Below, in pieces: positions 47,988-64,000 of a DNA stretch of 64,000 nucleotides. The position numbers and the translations under genes were made by a program. How positions within the stretch are numbered: position 1 is the first letter of the stretch; each line of letters begins with the position of its first letter. The DNA is from an uncultured Bacilli bacterium (lineage in GTDB: Bacteria; Bacillota_I; Bacilli_A; RF39; UBA660), in the NCBI GenBank assembly GCA_934167695.1, contig CAKPLP010000003.1:11529-75528 (forward strand), in the 5' to 3' direction. The notes beneath the pieces are model-generated. The model did not search any database. It saw only the letters and a list, made by a program, of their open reading frames with translations, and had not been told where the DNA came from.

Positions 47988-48016
47988 AAAAATCGGTTTG
48001 TTTGCCGATTTTTATT
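47986..48016. terminator. bidirectional intrinsic terminator (AAATCGG-TTTGTTTG-CCGATTT)
   Basis: 7-bp stem flanked by an A-run and a T-run, between convergent trmL (+) and the thioredoxin-like gene (-). Confidence 0.6.
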
Positions 48017-48419
48017 TTATATATTTTAATTTTTTTAATGTGTTTTTTAATTTTTTATCACTAATAGAACCTGTGATTCGGCTACTAACAATTTCTTTTC
48101 CCTTATTGAAAAACATTGTAGTAGGAGTTCCTTCAAATGTATATTTTTCATTAAACTTATTGTAATCGCTTTCTGAAATATAAGAAATATTTAAATTATA
48201 AGCTTCTAAATTATTATCTTTTAAAATAGTCTTTAATCTTGGTGTAAATTCTTCACAATGACTACAACCATCTTGAGTAATTTCTAATATAAATGTTTCT
48301 TTTTTATCTATCATATCTTTAATTTCATCATAGCTTACTCTTTTTAGTGTATTTTGACATCCTGTTAATAGTAAAATTGCTATTAAAAACAAGGGAATCT
48401 TTATAAATATCTTTTTCAT
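48012..48419 (-). CDS. thioredoxin-fold lipoprotein (CxxC = CSHC), extracytoplasmic thiol-disulfide oxidoreductase candidate
   Basis: Lipobox LLTGC. CSHCEEF active-site-like motif in a thioredoxin-like context (ITQDGCSHC). Confidence 0.65.
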   Translation of the reverse strand: MKKIFIKIPLFLIAILLLTGCQNTLKRVSYDEIKDMIDKKETFILEITQDGCSHCEEFTPRLKTILKDNNLEAYNLNISYISESDYNKFNEKYTFEGTPTTMFFNKGKEIVSSRITGSISDKKLKNTLKKLKYIK

Positions 48420-48520
48420 TTTTACCTCTTTTCTTTACAAAAAAAATTATATCATACCTTTTAAAAATATGTAAAGTAAGTTATAATTAAATAAGAGTAA
48501 AGGAAAGGGGTATTTGTAAA

Positions 48521-50086
48521 ATGATTTTTAGAAAACCTTATGCATTTTTAATTAAAAATTTTAGAAAGATTCATATTACAATTTTAGCGGCATGGCTTTT
48601 TATTTATTTTAAAGTCAATGATATAACTAGTTTTGTAAGTGAATTTATTGGGTTTGGTACTTATAGTTCTTCGTTAGAATCTTTTTCATCTAAGGTTGGT
48701 ATTTTATTTTATTTAGCTGTTATTTTTATTATAGTAAGTAGTTTATTATTACTTATACTATTAAAAAGAAAGGATAAGCCTTGGAAAGTATATCTTATTT
48801 ATATATTTGAATATGTATTATTACTTTTTGCAGTTATTTTTCTATCTGGATTTTTTTCTTCATATACAATTAATACTAATGTTAGTGGAGTATTAATATA
48901 TAGAGATATGTTAAACATATCTAAATATTTACAATATGTAGTTTTAGTTTTTTTAGTTATAAGAGTTTTGGGTATTGATCTTAAGAAATTTAATTTTAAG
49001 AATGATGAGGAATTTTTAGAGCTTAGTAGTGATGATAGAGAAGAGTTTGAGATTAGTTTTGATTTTGATAAGAATTCTATTAAAAGAGGATTTAATAGGT
49101 TTAAAAGAAATTTTAATTATTTTTATCGTGAGCATAAATTTATATGTGATATTTTTATGATTGGATGTTTGGTGTTTTTAATTGGATATTCTTATTATTA
49201 TTTTGGAATTGTTCATAAATCTTATAAGCAGGGAAAAACATTTAATTCTGGTATTTATAGTATTACTGTAAATGATAGTTATGTAACTAATAAAGATTAT
49301 GCTGGTAATAGTATAGAGAAAGGTTATAAATTTGTTATTGTAAAGGTTAGTATAAAAAATAATTATAATAAAACTGTTGAACCTAATTTAGATAGATTTC
49401 ATTTAGTTAATAAAAATACTGAAAGATCATATTCTAGTTTTTATAACAGCTATTTTAAGGATCTTGGAGATGGTGCTGATGATGCTATTAAAATTAATAC
49501 TGGTAAGGAAAAATCTGTTTATTTAGTTTATAGAGTAAAGGGTGATCTTGATAATAAAAAGTTTGTATTATATTACCAAGAACTTGGAGGAAAACTTAGA
49601 AGTTATTTAAGAAAGATAAAACTAAATATTCAGGATGTTTCAGAAATTAAGGATGTTGGTGAATATAATAAGGGTGATAAAATAGATTTTAGTTATGTTT
49701 CTGGTACTAAAAAGAAAATTACTATTACTGATAGCGCTATTCAGTCTAGTTTTGCTTATCATAGATATTATTGTCCAACTTCTTCTATGTGTGGTGTGTA
49801 TGATGAAAATTTAACTGCTGAAGAGGGGAAACTTCTTTTAAAAATTTCTTTTGCTTCAAGTGATTTTGAAGGCGAAGATTTTATTGACTTTTCATCTAGT
49901 TATGGTAAAATTAAATATATAGATAATAAGGGTAAAACTCAATATGCAAGTATTAAAAATGCTATTAAAACGAATTATCAAGGCAAGGAAATTTTTATTA
50001 GTAGTGATGCTGATGTTTTGAATTCAGAAAAAATTTGGATAGAATATATCCTTAGAAACAAAAGATATGTTTTAAGAATAAAGTAA
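48521..50086 (+). CDS. hypothetical polytopic membrane protein with beta-rich extracellular C-terminal domain (521 aa)
   Basis: Four to five N-terminal TMs. The C-terminal 300 aa are hydrophilic with Cys. Confidence 0.45.
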   Translation: MIFRKPYAFLIKNFRKIHITILAAWLFIYFKVNDITSFVSEFIGFGTYSSSLESFSSKVGILFYLAVIFIIVSSLLLLILLKRKDKPWKVYLIYIFEYVLLLFAVIFLSGFFSSYTINTNVSGVLIYRDMLNISKYLQYVVLVFLVIRVLGIDLKKFNFKNDEEFLELSSDDREEFEISFDFDKNSIKRGFNRFKRNFNYFYREHKFICDIFMIGCLVFLIGYSYYYFGIVHKSYKQGKTFNSGIYSITVNDSYVTNKDYAGNSIEKGYKFVIVKVSIKNNYNKTVEPNLDRFHLVNKNTERSYSSFYNSYFKDLGDGADDAIKINTGKEKSVYLVYRVKGDLDNKKFVLYYQELGGKLRSYLRKIKLNIQDVSEIKDVGEYNKGDKIDFSYVSGTKKKITITDSAIQSSFAYHRYYCPTSSMCGVYDENLTAEEGKLLLKISFASSDFEGEDFIDFSSSYGKIKYIDNKGKTQYASIKNAIKTNYQGKEIFISSDADVLNSEKIWIEYILRNKRYVLRIK

Positions 50087-50101
50087 AGAGGCGGCGATAT
50101 T

Positions 50102-62768: not shown

Positions 62769-62830
62769 ATATATTATTTGACAAATTTGTATAATTTTTG
62801 TATTATATGTGTAGTGAAGGAGAGTTAAAT

Positions 62831-63184
62831 ATGAATAAATTATTATTAATTGGAGCTGAAGATATTAATGGAGTTTGTCATGGATTATTACCAATTATAA
62901 GAGTTATTAGAAAAGGTGTTTTTCCAATTATTCAAGTTGGAATTCCTATTGTTTTAATAGTATTGGGTACAATAGATTTAGGAAAAGCTGTTATATCAAG
63001 TGATGATAAAGAAGTAAAAGCTGCTCAAGGAAGATTGATTAAAAGAATTTTATATGCTGCTATTATTTTCTTTATGACTACTATAGTTACTTTAGTATTT
63101 AATATTATTGGTACTGCTAATGATAATGATGTAACTGAAGGTTCTGCTTCTTGGGCTGATTGTTGGCGTGAAGCAGGTAAGTAA
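62831..63184 (+). CDS. small membrane protein with conserved IDxxKxxISSDxKxxxxxQxRLxxR module, paralog 1
   Basis: PIIQVGIPIVLIVLGTIDLGKAVISSDDKEVKAAQGRLIKRILYAAIIFF + TM. AAGGAGAG RBS. Confidence 0.4.
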   Translation: MNKLLLIGAEDINGVCHGLLPIIRVIRKGVFPIIQVGIPIVLIVLGTIDLGKAVISSDDKEVKAAQGRLIKRILYAAIIFFMTTIVTLVFNIIGTANDNDVTEGSASWADCWREAGK

Positions 63185-63272
63185 TTTTATATTTTTTATA
63201 GCAAGTAATTGCTATTTTTTTTTTTCTTTGCTATAATTTATTATGATATAGTATAAATTTGGAGTGATAGAT

Positions 63273-64000
63273 ATGACTGTTATGAAAGACAATAAATATA
63301 TATATTTTTTTCTTATTATTGTTGGGGTAATTCTATTTTCTCCTATGAATATTTATGCAAAAGAAGTTAGGTGTTTTTATTCTAGTAGTGATGCTTCTTC
63401 TCAATATGAAACTACTATTTATGATGATAACACTCAACATCAAGATACTTCACTTGTTACTAGATATTATGGAAAATCTCGCAATCAAAGAGAACAATTT
63501 AAAAACGGTTGGAATTACTTAAAAAAACAGGTTACTTCAAAAAGTGAAGAACTTAAATGTCCAAATTATGCTGTTATAGTTCATAATAAAGTTGGATGGC
63601 AAGTATATGGATATTTTTCAGAAAGTGATTTTAATGCTAAGGTTGAAAGTTTAAAATCTAAAAATAAAAAGTATGCTGTAACTTATAGTACTAATAATAG
63701 TGAATACGCTAAAAATAATGTATCTAATAATAACACTAGCACTAATATTACTGAAGATGCTACTAGCAATTCAAAAAATAATTCTTGTAAGAAAATTTTA
63801 GGAAAAACTAATGACCCTAATAGTGTTGCTTACCTATTACAGTTATTGTTTAATTATGTTAAAGTGTTAGGACCAATATTAGTAATTGTTTTTAGTTCTA
63901 TTGATTTTACTAAGACGATATTATCATCAGATGAGAAGGCTATGAAAAATTCTCAGAGAAAACTTGGGATTAGATTATTATGTGCAGTTGGACTTTATTT
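63273..64000 (+). CDS. secreted protein sharing the same C-terminal module (partial, runs off the window end)
   Basis: Signal peptide MKDNKYIYFFLIIVGVILFSPMNIYA. ...ILVIVFSSIDFTKTILSSDEKAMKNSQRKLGIRLLCAVGLY aligns with the upstream protein's module. Confidence 0.4.
   Translation, partial: MTVMKDNKYIYFFLIIVGVILFSPMNIYAKEVRCFYSSSDASSQYETTIYDDNTQHQDTSLVTRYYGKSRNQREQFKNGWNYLKKQVTSKSEELKCPNYAVIVHNKVGWQVYGYFSESDFNAKVESLKSKNKKYAVTYSTNNSEYAKNNVSNNNTSTNITEDATSNSKNNSCKKILGKTNDPNSVAYLLQLLFNYVKVLGPILVIVFSSIDFTKTILSSDEKAMKNSQRKLGIRLLCAVGLY

What the first reader, a model, noticed from the sequence alone, without database searches (positions are those of the whole stretch)
48012..64000. Composite surface-organelle locus: Tad/Flp-type pilus machinery joined to a class B sortase, a 1131-aa Cys-rich secreted protein and a thioredoxin-like lipoprotein
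Reading from 48012 to the window end, the genes are:
1. a CxxC thioredoxin-fold lipoprotein;
2. a polytopic membrane protein;
3. an anchored DUF5011 protein;
4. a class B sortase;
5. a huge disulfide-rich secreted protein;
6. a small anchored protein;
7. CpaB;
8. the TadA/CpaF ATPase;
9. TadB;
10. TadC;
11. a tiny pilin-like ORF;
12. two paralogous anchored proteins;
13. a TadZ/CpaE-like pseudo-ATPase;
14. two proteins sharing a C-terminal module.

Almost all are on one strand with short or overlapping junctions (TAATG at tadB/tadC; the sortase 3' end overlaps the start of the large protein). That points to one or two operons. Tad loci are known in Firmicutes. The tight coupling here to a sortase B and to large Cys-rich exported proteins is not a textbook arrangement. 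It could be a dedicated adhesion or attachment organelle. No prepilin peptidase (TadV) and no sortase substrate is visible, so the locus probably continues past 64000.
Basis: partly seen in the sequence, partly recalled or inferred. Interest (0 to 1): 0.75.

Follow-up and report, generated by a model that had tools for sequence, protein, structure and literature searches.

The report
Chromosomal conjugation-type secretion machine with Tad-like pilus
The region is the first two thirds of a roughly 28-kb gene cluster, kept in the chromosome of a whole group of small-genome uncultured gut bacteria, that joins a Tad-like pilus motor to a Gram-positive type IV (conjugation-type) secretion system; no gene for the DNA-nicking enzyme that conjugation needs was found in the roughly 5-10 kb examined on either side.

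Summary
The gene list is largely right: 12 of the 14 calls hold. The TadZ call failed every test, and TadC has only indirect support.

The interpretation misses the main point. Near-identical contigs show the operon continuing past base 64000. It does not run into tadV or sortase substrates. It runs into a Gram-positive type IV secretion system (T4SS): VirB6-like, VirB3-like, a split VirB4, a cell-wall hydrolase and a VirD4 coupling protein. The "two proteins sharing a C-terminal module" are VirB2-like T4SS pilins.

The Tad-like block is DUF5411, CpaB, a CpaF-type ATPase, a TadB-like and a TadC-like membrane protein, a roughly 50-aa pilin and minor pilins. The same block sits inside the conjugation operons of Bacillus plasmids pLS20 and pBMB64, where the papers I read name only a "VirB11" ATPase.

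Here the cluster is chromosomal and lies between conserved housekeeping genes. No relaxase or integrase was seen in the flanks examined. At least 547 species-level genomes of RF39-like Bacilli carry it, with VirB4 75-92% identical in the best 80.

Best reading: a domesticated, vertically inherited T4SS/Tad hybrid for contact-dependent transfer. Its substrate is unknown.

Novelty: new variant of a known kind. Interest 0.7.

The parts
46912..47451 (+). Membrane-anchored DUF6568/PedC-like protein just upstream of trmL. It is a possible accessory thiol-disulfide protein, and whether it belongs to the locus is uncertain.
   Evidence: PF20207 133 bits. The same gene lies upstream of trmL in the CAG:417-type contig L086.
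47988..48013 (.). Bidirectional terminator-like hairpin between trmL and the thioredoxin gene. It marks the left boundary of the locus.
48012..48419 (-). Thioredoxin-fold lipoprotein with a CSHC motif, divergently transcribed. Its position varies between species.
   Evidence: PF00085 36 bits. NCBIfam PedC/BrcD 1.9e-10 and the F-type pilin-assembly isomerase TrbB 3.2e-5. The orthologue in L094 also hits TraF weakly. The gene is absent at this position in L093 and L095.
48521..50086 (+). Membrane protein with about five transmembrane segments and an extracellular DUF4352 domain. It is the first gene of the + strand operon.
   Evidence: PF11611 33 bits. Transmembrane prediction. Conserved in 7 contigs, with invariant RKPYAFLIK, D129 and G151-x-D153.
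50102..51871 (+). N-terminally anchored surface protein with a Bact_surface_Ig-like (former DUF5011) domain.
   Evidence: PF16403 62 bits. Same position in L086-L088 and L093-L095.
51879..52697 (+). Membrane-anchored sortase-like transpeptidase, closest to class B. No substrate was identified.
   Evidence: PF04203 35 bits; TIGR03064 68 bits (cutoff 153.75); PDB SrtB 5b23 E=2e-13. H120 and TLVTC224 are invariant. K236 sits where the catalytic Arg is expected, by my reading of alignment A5.
52681..56076 (+). 1131-aa secreted, fast-evolving, disulfide-rich protein, a presumed adhesin or distal component. It sits where the plasmid systems place their large adhesin gene.
56100..56588 (+). DUF5411 protein with an N-terminal anchor, a signature gene of this Firmicute Tad-like module.
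   Evidence: PF17424 157 bits. It takes the same position in the Priestia plasmid (annotated DUF5411). pLS20 p36 hits DUF5411 at 25.5 bits, below the 30-bit cutoff. pBMB64 has an unannotated small gene at that position.
56616..57422 (+). CpaB/RcpC-like SAF-domain protein with an N-terminal anchor.
   Evidence: PF16976 30.2 bits (cutoff 28.8); TIGR03177 37 bits. The RF39 HMM hits the plasmid SAF-domain proteins at 116-129 bits.
57458..58885 (+). CpaF/TadA-VirB11 superfamily secretion ATPase with a variable low-complexity C-terminal tail.
   Evidence: PF00437 96 bits. PDB: CpaF 74.6 > FlaI 71.8 > VirB11 53 bits. 36-37% identical to the pLS20-family "VirB11/tadA". Median identity 83% across species.
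58909..59802 (+). TadB-like inner-membrane platform protein with a GspF/PilC-type cytoplasmic domain.
59802..60590 (+). TadC-like second platform protein.
   Evidence: Topology of transmembrane segment, cytoplasmic domain, transmembrane segment. Its HMM hits the gene after TadB on the Priestia plasmid (6.9e-13) and on pBMB64. hhalign vs pLS20 p39 gives 89.9%. hhalign against the TadB-like family gives only 12%.
60661..60813 (+). 50-aa major pilin candidate of the Tad-like module.
   Evidence: N-terminus MK[AE]A[ST]G|ELN[LM]TV followed by a hydrophobic helix, conserved across the about 65 distinct orthologue sequences listed. The same motif (MKDYTG|ELV) occurs in the distant locus L097.
60825..61277 (+). 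Minor pilin-like protein 1.
   Evidence: Leader MKDALG followed by a hydrophobic helix. Fast-evolving (median identity 32%). Some species have one copy, others two.
61301..61774 (+). Minor pilin-like protein 2, a paralogue of the previous gene.
   Evidence: Leader MRDSLG..
61791..62768 (+). 325-aa cytoplasmic protein of unknown fold. It is conserved in the locus, but it was not shown to be TadZ.
   Evidence: No ParA/MinD hit in any of 27 orthologues. No PDB profile hit. hhalign vs the Priestia ParA-like protein gives 0.1%.
62778..62806 (+). Promoter-like site (TTGACA-17-TATTAT) ahead of the T4SS half of the locus.
   Evidence: This is a consensus match only.
62831..63184 (+). 117-aa VirB2-like T4SS pilin: a hairpin of two transmembrane helices flanked by an invariant Cys pair.
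   Evidence: 22 of 28 orthologues hit PF18895 T4SS_pilin (best 5.7e-6; the window copy scores 0.16). A Cys before the first helix and a Cys near the C-terminus are present in 68 of 68 orthologues.
63273..64000 (+). 267-aa paralogue, cut off by the window end. It has a signal peptide, a variable extracellular domain and the same VirB2-like hairpin.
   Evidence: Alignment A6. The full gene is seen in L002 at 10443-11246.

Best explanation
Bases 48012-64000 are the left two thirds of a single chromosomal cluster of about 24 genes and about 28 kb. The cluster encodes a Gram-positive conjugation-type T4SS with a built-in Tad-like type IV filament module and a surface-protein module.

Shown by the evidence:
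- Gene content and gene order.
- The continuation into VirB6-like, VirB3-like, split VirB4, hydrolase and VirD4 genes.
- Shared architecture with the transfer regions of plasmids pLS20 and pBMB64: the same Tad-like block and the same T4SS block, though arranged differently on pBMB64.
- Conserved chromosomal flanks and divergence that tracks a flanking housekeeping gene.
- No relaxase or integrase in the flanks examined.

Inferred mechanism:
- The CpaF-type ATPase, together with the TadB-like and TadC-like platform proteins and CpaB, polymerises the 44-aa mature pilin and the minor pilins into a short fibre or piston that crosses the cell wall.
- The leader would be cleaved by a prepilin peptidase encoded elsewhere in the genome.
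- The hydrolase opens the peptidoglycan.
- VirB4, VirB6, VirB3-like and the disulfide-clamped VirB2-like pilins form the membrane channel.
- The VirD4 coupling protein feeds a substrate, DNA or protein, into a contacted cell.
- The fast-evolving surface set makes and specifies the contact. That set comprises the 1131-aa Cys-rich protein, the Ig-like protein, the DUF4352 protein, the sortase-like enzyme and the minor pilins.
- The thioredoxin-like proteins help the exported proteins form their disulfides.

The cluster is fixed in the chromosome across an order-level lineage of bacteria with genomes of about 1.5 Mb. I therefore read it as a domesticated host function rather than a mobile element.
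For: Continuation into a T4SS:
- Near-identical contigs L001-L003 and the more distant L086-L088 extend the operon through VirB6/TrbL-like, a 105-aa protein with two or three transmembrane segments, a TraC-like 184-aa protein, a 596-aa VirB4, a Glucosaminidase+C39/CHAP hydrolase, a 261-aa anchored protein and a T4CP.
- The T4CP passes the NCBIfam CD1115-family cutoff (306 vs 250 bits). VirB4 scores 350 bits against the mycoplasma-ICE VirB4 family, below that family's 590-bit cutoff.
- p117 is a T4SS_pilin in 22 of 28 orthologues.

Tad-like module:
- T2SSE ATPase closest to CpaF.
- TadB-like fold matches PilC and GspF.
- RcpC/SAF domain.
- Conserved pilin leader.

Same module inside plasmid conjugation regions:
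- pLS20 genes 36-41.
- Paraclostridium plasmid.
- B. thuringiensis pBMB64.
- Priestia plasmid, where only the Tad-like module was seen in the stretch examined.

Vertical inheritance:
- At least 547 species-representative genomes encode a relative of this VirB4. The best 80 are 75-92% identical and nearly all are labelled uncultured Bacilli, Tenericutes or Mycoplasma.
- Upstream, trmL, U32 peptidase or GreA are found. Downstream, a DUF6273 protein is present in 47 of 65 loci and RmuC in 42 of 65. No integrase or relaxase was seen.
- Pairwise identities of locus genes correlate with those of flanking RmuC (Spearman 0.42-0.68).
- G+C content matches the flanks.

Evolutionary rates:
- Cytoplasmic and membrane core genes are conserved (66-83% identity). 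Exposed parts evolve fast (29-37%).
Against: - No relaxase, oriT or known effector was identified, so the substrate is unknown.
- The prepilin peptidase is not in the locus or the window. The pilin lacks the Flp G/XXXXEY motif and any Pfam pilin hit above threshold.
- TadC-like, VirB6-like, VirB3-like and VirB8-like assignments rest on weak scores, topology or position.
- The sortase has no visible substrate, and the residue expected to be its catalytic Arg appears to be Lys.
- Most pLS20 proteins show no detectable profile similarity to the RF39 proteins.
- There are no expression or imaging data.
- The T4SS half lies outside the window. It is inferred from near-identical contigs: the ATPase is 99% identical in L001, and the 117-aa protein is identical in L002-L005.
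Confidence: 0.6

Rival explanations
1. The cluster is an integrative conjugative element, or a remnant of one, inserted next to trmL. It moves itself between gut Bacilli like any Gram-positive ICE.
For: All recognisable parts (VirB4, VirD4, VirB6, hydrolase, VirB2-like pilin, the "VirB11" block) have their closest annotated relatives on conjugative plasmids and mycoplasma or clostridial ICEs.
Against: - Both flanks are conserved housekeeping genes across dozens of species.
- No relaxase, integrase or transposase was seen within the roughly 5-10 kb examined on either side.
- VirB4 is at least as conserved as flanking RmuC and co-diverges with it.
- Composition matches the flanks.
- A single homologous site per locus in at least 547 species.
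Confidence: 0.1
2. Two independent machines lie side by side by chance or through shared regulation. One is a Tad-type adhesion pilus with sortase and adhesin. The other is a separate T4SS.
For: - A promoter-like site at 62778-62806 and a weak hairpin followed by a T-run after p117 could split the cluster into two units.
- The DUF5411-CpaB-ATPase-TadB-TadC module was seen in contig stretches with no T4SS gene in view: the Priestia plasmid region and L097. It was also reported without T4SS genes in Roseburia, Ruminococcus and Eubacterium (PMC9523054).
Against: - The same adjacency recurs independently in pLS20-family plasmids, the Paraclostridium plasmid and pBMB64.
- Gene order is invariant across all RF39 loci that cover both halves.
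- L097 ends before a T4SS could be seen.
Confidence: 0.15
3. The cluster is a DNA-uptake (competence) machine, combining a Tad-like pilus as in Micrococcus with a ComB-like T4SS as in Helicobacter. It would supply nucleotides or genes to an auxotrophic organism.
For: - Tad pili mediate transformation in Micrococcus luteus (PMC4322843) and are linked to DNA uptake in Liberibacter (PMC8513845).
- The organism has a reduced genome.
- No relaxase was found.
Against: - A VirD4 coupling protein is present and conserved (66% median identity). According to the review PMC12857230, the T4SSs that take up DNA are among the systems that lack a T4CP.
- A separate canonical type IV pilin gene exists in the window.
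Confidence: 0.1

Closest known systems
Conjugation operon of Bacillus subtilis plasmid pLS20 (genes 34-54) and its family (Val-Calvo 2021, PMC8557374); also the Paraclostridium bifermentans plasmid NZ_CP079739
   Same: The order is largely collinear: large secreted adhesin; small anchored protein (p36, weak DUF5411); CpaF/VirB11-type ATPase (36-37% identity); two membrane proteins (p38 weak T2SSF, p39 hhalign 90% to the TadC-like protein); small N-anchored protein (weak DUF4320); 47-aa hydrophobic peptide; 76-aa hairpin of two transmembrane helices; VirB6; a 103-aa protein with two transmembrane helices; VirB4; VirB8-like; hydrolase. The VirD4 is of the CD1115 family.
   Different: - pLS20 is a plasmid with a MobP2 relaxase, quorum-sensing control and surface exclusion. 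The window's cluster is chromosomal with none of these in view.
- pLS20 lacks CpaB/SAF, the sortase, the Ig-like and DUF4352 genes and the thioredoxins.
- VirD4 sits before VirB6 instead of at the end.
- Its adhesin is a thioester-domain protein, not a Cys-rich one.
- Most small proteins show no detectable sequence similarity.
Transfer region of Bacillus thuringiensis plasmid pBMB64 (NZ_CP004872). I take it to be of the pAW63/pXO2 type, but that was not tested.
   Same: It carries both halves. One half is VirD4 (CD1115 family), a VirB2-like hairpin, TrbL, PrgI-like, a 227-aa protein and VirB4. The other is a large protein, a small protein, SAF/CpaB, an AAA ATPase, a T2SS/T4P-type ATPase, TadB-like, TadC-like, a small peptide and DUF4320. 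RF39 HMMs hit CpaB (116 bits), the ATPase (123), TadB (39), TadC (36), the VirB4 N-terminal part (67), VirB4 (289) and the T4CP (265).
   Different: It is a plasmid with a MobP3 relaxase. It has a ParA-like (TadZ-like) ATPase that the RF39 locus lacks. The two halves are arranged in a different order. It has no sortase or thioredoxin genes.
Mycoplasma integrative conjugative elements (ICEA/ICEB; Mbov_0395-0397 gene families)
   Same: Best NCBIfam matches are the mycoplasma ICE families: Mbov_0397 for VirB4 (350 bits), and MMCAP2_0566 and Mbov_0396 for the VirB6-like protein. The order pilin-like, VirB6-like, VirB4 is my recollection of the ICE layout, not a tested result. The hosts are related small-genome Bacilli (PMC12857230).
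   Different: - Mycoplasma ICEs are mobile; that they use a DDE transposase is my own recollection.
- They lack hydrolase and VirB8-like genes, because mycoplasmas have no wall (PMC12857230).
- No Tad-like module is described for them in the papers I read.
- All scores are below the equivalog cutoffs.
- VirB4 is split into 184-aa and 596-aa ORFs here.
Tad/Flp (type IVc) pilus systems such as Caulobacter Cpa and Aggregatibacter Tad
   Same: CpaF-family ATPase. Two half-size platform proteins, one with a proven GspF-like fold. A CpaB/RcpC SAF protein. A very small pilin plus TadE/F-like minor pilins with short leaders ending in Gly.
   Different: - No T2SSF, Flp_Fap or TadE Pfam hits for the window's proteins.
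- The pilin motif is G|ELN, not G|XXXXEY.
- No TadV or TadZ in the locus.
- No secretin, as expected for a single-membrane cell.
- The module is embedded in a T4SS operon.
Hybrid or domesticated T4SSs reviewed in PMC12857230: PAPI-1 and R64 (T4SS plus type IVb pilus), and the Patescibacteria T4SS that is essential for epibiotic growth and has VirB2-like pilins
   Same: A T4SS is functionally joined to a type IV filament machine. In Patescibacteria, as here, a T4SS with VirB2-like pilins is carried in the chromosome of an ultra-reduced single-membrane bacterium.
   Different: PAPI-1 and R64 are mobile elements of double-membrane bacteria and use type IVb pili. The Patescibacteria locus is not reported to contain a Tad-like module. 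No experimental data exist for the RF39 locus.

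Membership tests
Tad/Flp type IVc pilus system | TadA/CpaF-family secretion ATPase | tested here: met
   PF00437 95.9 bits. Best solved relatives are CpaF 74.6 bits and FlaI 71.8 bits, ahead of VirB11 at 53 bits. NCBIfam equivalog cutoffs were not reached (VirB11 111 bits, TadA-conjugal 100 bits).
Tad/Flp type IVc pilus system | TadB and TadC platform proteins with a T2SSF (GspF) domain | tested here: inconclusive
Tad/Flp type IVc pilus system | Flp-family pilin (Flp_Fap, G/XXXXEY processing motif) | tested here: not met
   No Flp_Fap hit; only archaeal Pilin_N at E=0.014. The conserved motif is G|ELN[LM]TV. It is pilin-like in size and hydrophobic helix, but it is not Flp.
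Tad/Flp type IVc pilus system | Dedicated prepilin peptidase TadV (A24 family) in or near the locus | tested here: not met
   No GxGD-type motif in any window ORF of 80 aa or more. None is annotated in any extended locus. The rest of the genome could not be searched.
Tad/Flp type IVc pilus system | TadZ/CpaE ParA-like localisation ATPase | tested here: not met
   The 325-aa protein has no ParA/MinD/CbiA hit in any of 27 orthologues. There is no PDB profile hit. hhalign vs the Priestia ParA-like protein gives 0.1%.
Tad/Flp type IVc pilus system | CpaB/RcpC SAF-domain protein | tested here: met
   PF16976 30.2 bits (cutoff 28.8). TIGR03177 scores 37 bits, below its cutoff of 71.
Gram-positive conjugation-type T4SS (pLS20 / CD1110-CD1115 type) | VirB4 ATPase | tested here: met
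   The 596-aa ORF in near-identical contigs hits P-loop_TraG and AAA_10, the mycoplasma-ICE VirB4 family at 350 bits and CD1110 at 175 bits. Both NCBIfam scores are below the equivalog cutoffs. The gene lies outside the window.
Gram-positive conjugation-type T4SS (pLS20 / CD1110-CD1115 type) | VirD4-type coupling protein | tested here: met
   T4SS-DNA_transf 205 bits. NCBIfam conju_CD1115 306 bits, above the 250-bit cutoff. Tested on the orthologue in L006.
Gram-positive conjugation-type T4SS (pLS20 / CD1110-CD1115 type) | VirB6-like polytopic channel protein, VirB3-like protein and VirB8-like protein | tested here: inconclusive
   TrbL at E=0.0016, TrbL_4 weak, Mbov_0396 at 1e-6. The 105-aa and 261-aa proteins are assigned by size, topology and position only.
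Gram-positive conjugation-type T4SS (pLS20 / CD1110-CD1115 type) | Cell-wall hydrolase (VirB1 analogue) | tested here: met
   Glucosaminidase 100.6 bits plus a C39-like or CHAP domain.
Gram-positive conjugation-type T4SS (pLS20 / CD1110-CD1115 type) | Relaxase and oriT (needed for self-transfer by conjugation) | tested here: not met
   None in the window or in the roughly 5-10 kb examined on either side of the cluster, including about 5 kb beyond VirD4 in 65 loci. The whole genome was not searchable.
Integrative conjugative element | Integrase or transposase, variable insertion site, patchy distribution | tested here: not met
   Both flanks are conserved across species. No recombinase was seen. 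The cluster co-diverges with RmuC.
Class B sortase | Catalytic His-Cys-Arg triad and a substrate with an NPQTN-, SPXTG- or LPXTG-type sorting signal | tested here: inconclusive
   TIGR03064 scores 68 bits, below its 153.75 cutoff. His120 and Cys224 are invariant. An invariant Lys236 appears to occupy the expected Arg position, judged from alignment A5 and not from a structural alignment. No sorting motif occurs in any locus protein.
VirB2-like T4SS pilin (Pfam T4SS_pilin) | Small hairpin of two transmembrane helices matching PF18895 | tested here: inconclusive
   22 of 28 orthologues match at E<=1 (best 5.7e-6), but the window copy scores only E=0.16, 12.5 bits, against a 26.6-bit cutoff. The topology fits.

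The most novel reading that the evidence does not exclude
Two linked readings remain open.

(a) The DUF5411-CpaB-ATPase-TadB-TadC-pilin block is the long-missing "pilus" of a large class of Gram-positive conjugation systems, the pLS20 and pBMB64 types. It would be a type IV filament co-opted to bridge the thick wall.

(b) In RF39-like bacteria this hybrid has been domesticated into a core chromosomal organelle that works without a linked relaxase. It could be needed for life on or with other cells, as the T4SS of Patescibacteria is. Or it could drive relaxase-independent chromosomal exchange of the mycoplasma MCT type. In either case the disulfide-clamped VirB2-like pilins and the hypervariable Cys-rich adhesin would set partner specificity.
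Probability: 0.3. Interest if true: 0.88.

Novelty: new variant of a known kind. Interest (0 to 1): 0.7.

Why it matters
RF39-like Bacilli are widespread, uncultured, auxotrophic members of human and animal gut communities. How they obtain what they lack is unknown. A T4SS kept under strong purifying selection in hundreds of their species, with hypervariable surface parts, points to obligatory cell-to-cell interaction or regular chromosomal gene exchange.

[quoted passage not shown] The pLS20-family paper lists genes 38-41 as unknown (PMC8557374). Recognising a Tad-like filament module inside these operons gives a concrete hypothesis that can be tested genetically in B. subtilis.

Tried and rejected
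- **TadZ for the 325-aa protein.** No ParA-type hit in 27 orthologues, no PDB profile hit, and hhalign probability 0.1% against a real ParA-like neighbour. Rejected.
- **Pfam, NCBIfam and PDB sequence searches for TadB-like and TadC-like.** All negative. Only fold comparison worked. hhalign of TadB-like against TadC-like gave 12%.
- **hhalign of 14 RF39 families against 31 pLS20 proteins.** Only TadC-like vs p39 scored 40% or more.
- **Megablast of the 16 kb against plasmids and phages.** No match.
- **Fold search of the 1131-aa model.** Only generic beta-sandwich hits, so no function could be assigned.
- **afdb50 fold library.** Unavailable.
- **Repeat motif in the ATPase tail.** Not conserved beyond close relatives.
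- **N-terminal membrane domain of the DUF4352 protein as the missing prepilin peptidase.** It has invariant D129 and G-x-D153, but this is not a GxGD motif and the two Asp lie at opposite ends of one helix. Left as an untested idea.
- **Sortase substrate search.** A regular-expression search over all locus proteins found nothing.
- **Literature.** Nothing was found on RF39 secretion systems or on pLS20 together with Tad.

Full report
**Context**

The window is about 26% G+C with a strong positive GC skew. Almost all genes are on the + strand. Upstream of the finding lie ordinary housekeeping genes (by my reading of the translations, miaB, priA, fmt and a PrkC-type kinase; by HMM, a Mur ligase and a sigma-70), and then a U32 peptidase and trmL, which ends at 47987. 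The region is therefore chromosomal. Megablast against plasmid and phage collections found nothing.

**Checking the observation**

- A bidirectional terminator-like hairpin at 47988-48013 separates trmL from the minus-strand thioredoxin gene. Divergent promoter-like sites lie at 48446-48487.
- From 48521 onward every gene is on the + strand, with gaps of -17 to +35 nt. Four gaps are larger, at 62-101 nt.

HMM results:

| Gene | Result |
|---|---|
| Thioredoxin lipoprotein | PF00085, 36 bits |
| Membrane protein | DUF4352, 33 bits |
| Anchored surface protein | Bact_surface_Ig-like (former DUF5011), 62 bits |
| Sortase | Pfam 35 bits; SrtB model 68 bits, well below its cutoff |
| 1131-aa protein | nothing |
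| Small anchored protein | DUF5411, 157 bits |
| CpaB | RcpC, 30.2 bits, just above cutoff |
| ATPase | T2SSE, 96 bits |
| Presumed TadB, TadC, TadZ; the two paralogous anchored proteins; the two last proteins | nothing |

The 1131-aa protein has 40 Cys. No LPXTG-, NPQTN- or SPXTG-type motif occurs in any locus protein. No GxGD-type peptidase motif occurs in any window ORF.

**What lies beyond the window**

The ATPase is 99% identical to one on a 114-kb metagenome contig. The 117-aa protein is identical on 20 further contigs. These contigs show the operon continuing as follows:

- a 267-aa paralogue of the 117-aa protein;
- a 664-666-aa TrbL/VirB6-like membrane protein;
- a 105-aa protein with two or three transmembrane segments;
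- a 184-aa TraC-like protein;
- a 596-aa VirB4-type ATPase;
- a 767-aa Glucosaminidase + C39/CHAP hydrolase;
- a 261-aa anchored protein;
- a VirD4-type coupling protein of about 700-770 aa.

Supporting scores:

- The coupling protein passes the curated cutoff of the CD1115 family (306 vs 250 bits).
- VirB4 scores 350 bits against the mycoplasma-ICE VirB4 family. The 184-aa ORF matches that family's N-terminal part, so VirB4 is split into two genes here.

Downstream of VirD4, most related loci have a DUF6273 membrane protein of about 400 aa, a 192-aa membrane protein and RmuC. Other loci have what look like nicotinamidase and nicotinate phosphoribosyltransferase genes, judged from the translations. 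No relaxase, integrase or transposase was seen.

**The last two proteins in the window**

They share a hairpin of two transmembrane helices (alignment A6). Twenty-two of 28 orthologues of the 117-aa protein match Pfam T4SS_pilin (best E=5.7e-6), so they are VirB2-like. Every one of 68 orthologues has one Cys just before the first helix and one near the C-terminus. By the positive-inside rule both would lie outside the cell. This suggests a disulfide clamp on the hairpin, but that is an inference.

**Is the Tad part real?**

- *ATPase.* It is closest to CpaF and FlaI among solved structures, ahead of VirB11.
- *TadC-like protein.* It has matching topology. Its profile hits the gene that follows TadB on other Bacillota plasmids.
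- *50-aa ORF.* It is a real, conserved gene. Its leader MK[AE]A[ST]G is followed by ELN[LM]TV and a hydrophobic helix. The two paralogous anchored proteins carry the same kind of leader.
- *TadZ-like protein.* It failed every test.

In summary, this is a type IV filament module of the Tad/archaeal branch, but it is not a canonical Flp/Tad system.

**Relatives**

The best plasmid matches to the ATPase are a Paraclostridium plasmid and the B. subtilis pLS20 family (36-37% identity).

- *pLS20.* Its annotated conjugation operon shows the same order: adhesin, p36 (weak DUF5411), p37 ATPase, p38 (weak T2SSF), p39 (hhalign 90% to TadC-like), p40 (weak DUF4320), a 47-aa peptide, a 76-aa hairpin, then VirD4, VirB6, a 103-aa protein, VirB4, a VirB8-like protein and a hydrolase.
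- *B. thuringiensis pBMB64.* It carries a T4SS plus a block of large protein, small protein, SAF/CpaB, AAA ATPase, T2SS/T4P-type ATPase, TadB-like, TadC-like and DUF4320. All of these except the AAA ATPase and the small proteins are hit by the RF39 profiles.
- *Priestia plasmid.* It has Ig-like protein, DUF5411, SAF, ParA-like, CpaF, T2SSF, TadC and DUF4320.

The papers I read on these plasmids name only a "VirB11" ATPase. The pLS20-family paper lists the neighbouring genes as unknown and says that pilus components are absent (PMC8557374; PMC9673590 for pAW63). [quoted passage not shown] A 2025 review of T4SS diversity mentions neither Tad nor pLS20 (PMC12857230). A language-model study did predict a secretion-related operon with CpaF, PilC and DUF5411 in Clostridia (PMC9523054).

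**Mobile or domesticated?**

- A scan of one genome per species found relatives of this VirB4 in at least 547 genomes. The best 80 are 75-92% identical. Nearly all are labelled uncultured Bacilli, Tenericutes or Mycoplasma sp. CAG:877, or Candidatus Onthousia; a few bins carry other labels. One is a circular 1.52-Mb chromosome. From my own knowledge these names correspond to the GTDB order RF39; I did not test this.
- Gene order is the same in every locus that covers it. The upstream set (DUF4352 protein, Ig-like protein, sortase-like protein, large protein) is kept in all seven contigs that reach it.
- Both flanks are conserved housekeeping genes.
- Pairwise identities of locus genes correlate with those of the flanking RmuC (Spearman 0.42-0.68). 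VirB4 is at least as conserved as RmuC.
- Median identities are 83% (ATPase), 82% (VirB4), 70% and 66% (TadB-like, TadC-like) and 66% (VirD4). By contrast they are 29-37% for the hydrolase, VirB6, the minor pilins and the 267-aa pilin paralogue. For the 1131-aa protein, identity falls from 100% straight to about 40% among the homologues found.

This pattern of a conserved motor with fast-evolving exposed parts fits a host-owned organelle that contacts other cells.

**Mechanism (inferred)**

- The Tad-like motor assembles a short fibre of the 44-aa mature pilin and the minor pilins through a wall opened by the hydrolase.
- VirB4, VirB6, the VirB3-like protein and the VirB2-like pilins form the channel.
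- VirD4 recruits the substrate.
- The Cys-rich protein, the Ig-like protein, the DUF4352 protein and the sortase-like enzyme build the contact surface.
- The thioredoxin-like proteins support disulfide formation. A precedent is the F-type TrbB/TraF isomerases, which the lipoprotein weakly resembles.

The substrate is unknown. The conserved coupling protein argues for export rather than uptake. No relaxase was found near the cluster, which leaves either protein transfer or relaxase-independent DNA exchange.

**Limits**

- The T4SS half is outside the window and is inferred from near-identical contigs.
- Several assignments rest on topology and position only: VirB3-like, VirB8-like, and in part VirB6-like and TadC-like.
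- The 1131-aa model is of medium quality (pLDDT 67) and matched only generic beta-sandwiches.
- Whole genomes could not be searched for a relaxase or a prepilin peptidase.

**Verdict**

The locus is a new variant of a known kind: a Gram-positive T4SS with an embedded Tad-like module, fixed in the chromosome of an uncultured gut lineage. Interest is 0.7.

Noticed in passing
window 42745-43518 (and 43569-44383): A canonical type IV pilin gene (MNNKGFTLVELIA..., prepilin N-terminal methylation domain 26 bits) lies about 5 kb upstream of the locus, followed by two zinc-ribbon ORFs. It implies that a PilD/ComC-type prepilin peptidase is encoded elsewhere in the genome. That enzyme could also process the Tad-like pilins.
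   Followed up: partly
window 62831-63184 and orthologues in 68 loci: The VirB2-like pilin has an invariant Cys just before its first transmembrane helix and another 5-16 residues from its C-terminus. Both are predicted to be extracellular. This may be a disulfide-clamped hairpin, functionally reminiscent of the cyclised pilins of double-membrane bacteria (my own knowledge).
   Followed up: partly
L002 13574-15915 (just beyond the window) and 84 related loci: VirB4 is split into overlapping ORFs of 184 aa and 596 aa. They correspond to the N-terminal and C-terminal parts of the 894-aa mycoplasma-ICE VirB4 family. The split is conserved in all loci.
   Followed up: partly
window 48521-50086: The DUF4352 membrane protein has a strikingly conserved N-terminus (RKPYAFLIK), invariant D129 and G151-x-D153 around its fourth transmembrane helix, and an acidic cytoplasmic loop (FLELSSEDREEFE). 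It might be an enzyme or a docking protein. I briefly considered it as the missing prepilin peptidase, but nothing supports that.
   Followed up: partly
window 52603-52631: A perfect TTGACA-17-TATAAT match lies inside the 3' end of the sortase gene, 50 nt before the start of the 1131-aa ORF. It may be an internal promoter. Another strong match at 62778-62806 precedes the VirB2-like pilin gene. A weak A+T-rich hairpin followed by a T-run comes after that gene, at about 63200-63230.
   Followed up: no
window 57458-58885, residues 330-475: The ATPase has a low-complexity Asn-rich C-terminal tail with two Y[YF]DM[YF]APKK repeats. Total ATPase length varies between species (365-598 aa in the loci, up to 693 aa among database homologues). 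The repeat is found only in close relatives.
   Followed up: yes
window 11961-14682 and 44425-44610: A family of N-terminally anchored paralogues shares the motif GGVYAA..VSGS.xTY.NS.SGLSST.VQ.AI.ELY and has no Pfam match. Its function is unknown.
   Followed up: no
window 38477-40675: A 732-aa sigma-70 family protein (regions 1.2 to 4) with long N-terminal and C-terminal extensions.
   Followed up: no
window 46912-47451: A second thiol-disulfide-type gene, a membrane-anchored DUF6568/PedC-like protein (133 bits), lies on the other side of trmL. In another species (L086) it is the only such gene near the locus.
   Followed up: partly
L094 17939-21020: In one divergent genome, an amine-oxidase-like gene and a 511-aa gene are inserted between the tadC-like gene and the pilin gene.
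   Followed up: no
L089 (pLS20), L098 (pBMB64), L090, L092: Well-studied Bacillus conjugative plasmids carry the same Tad-like block: small anchored protein (DUF5411 where detectable), CpaB/SAF in some, ATPase, TadB-like, TadC-like, small pilin-like peptide and DUF4320. These genes are annotated mostly as hypothetical, and the papers I read discuss only a "VirB11" homologue.
   Followed up: partly
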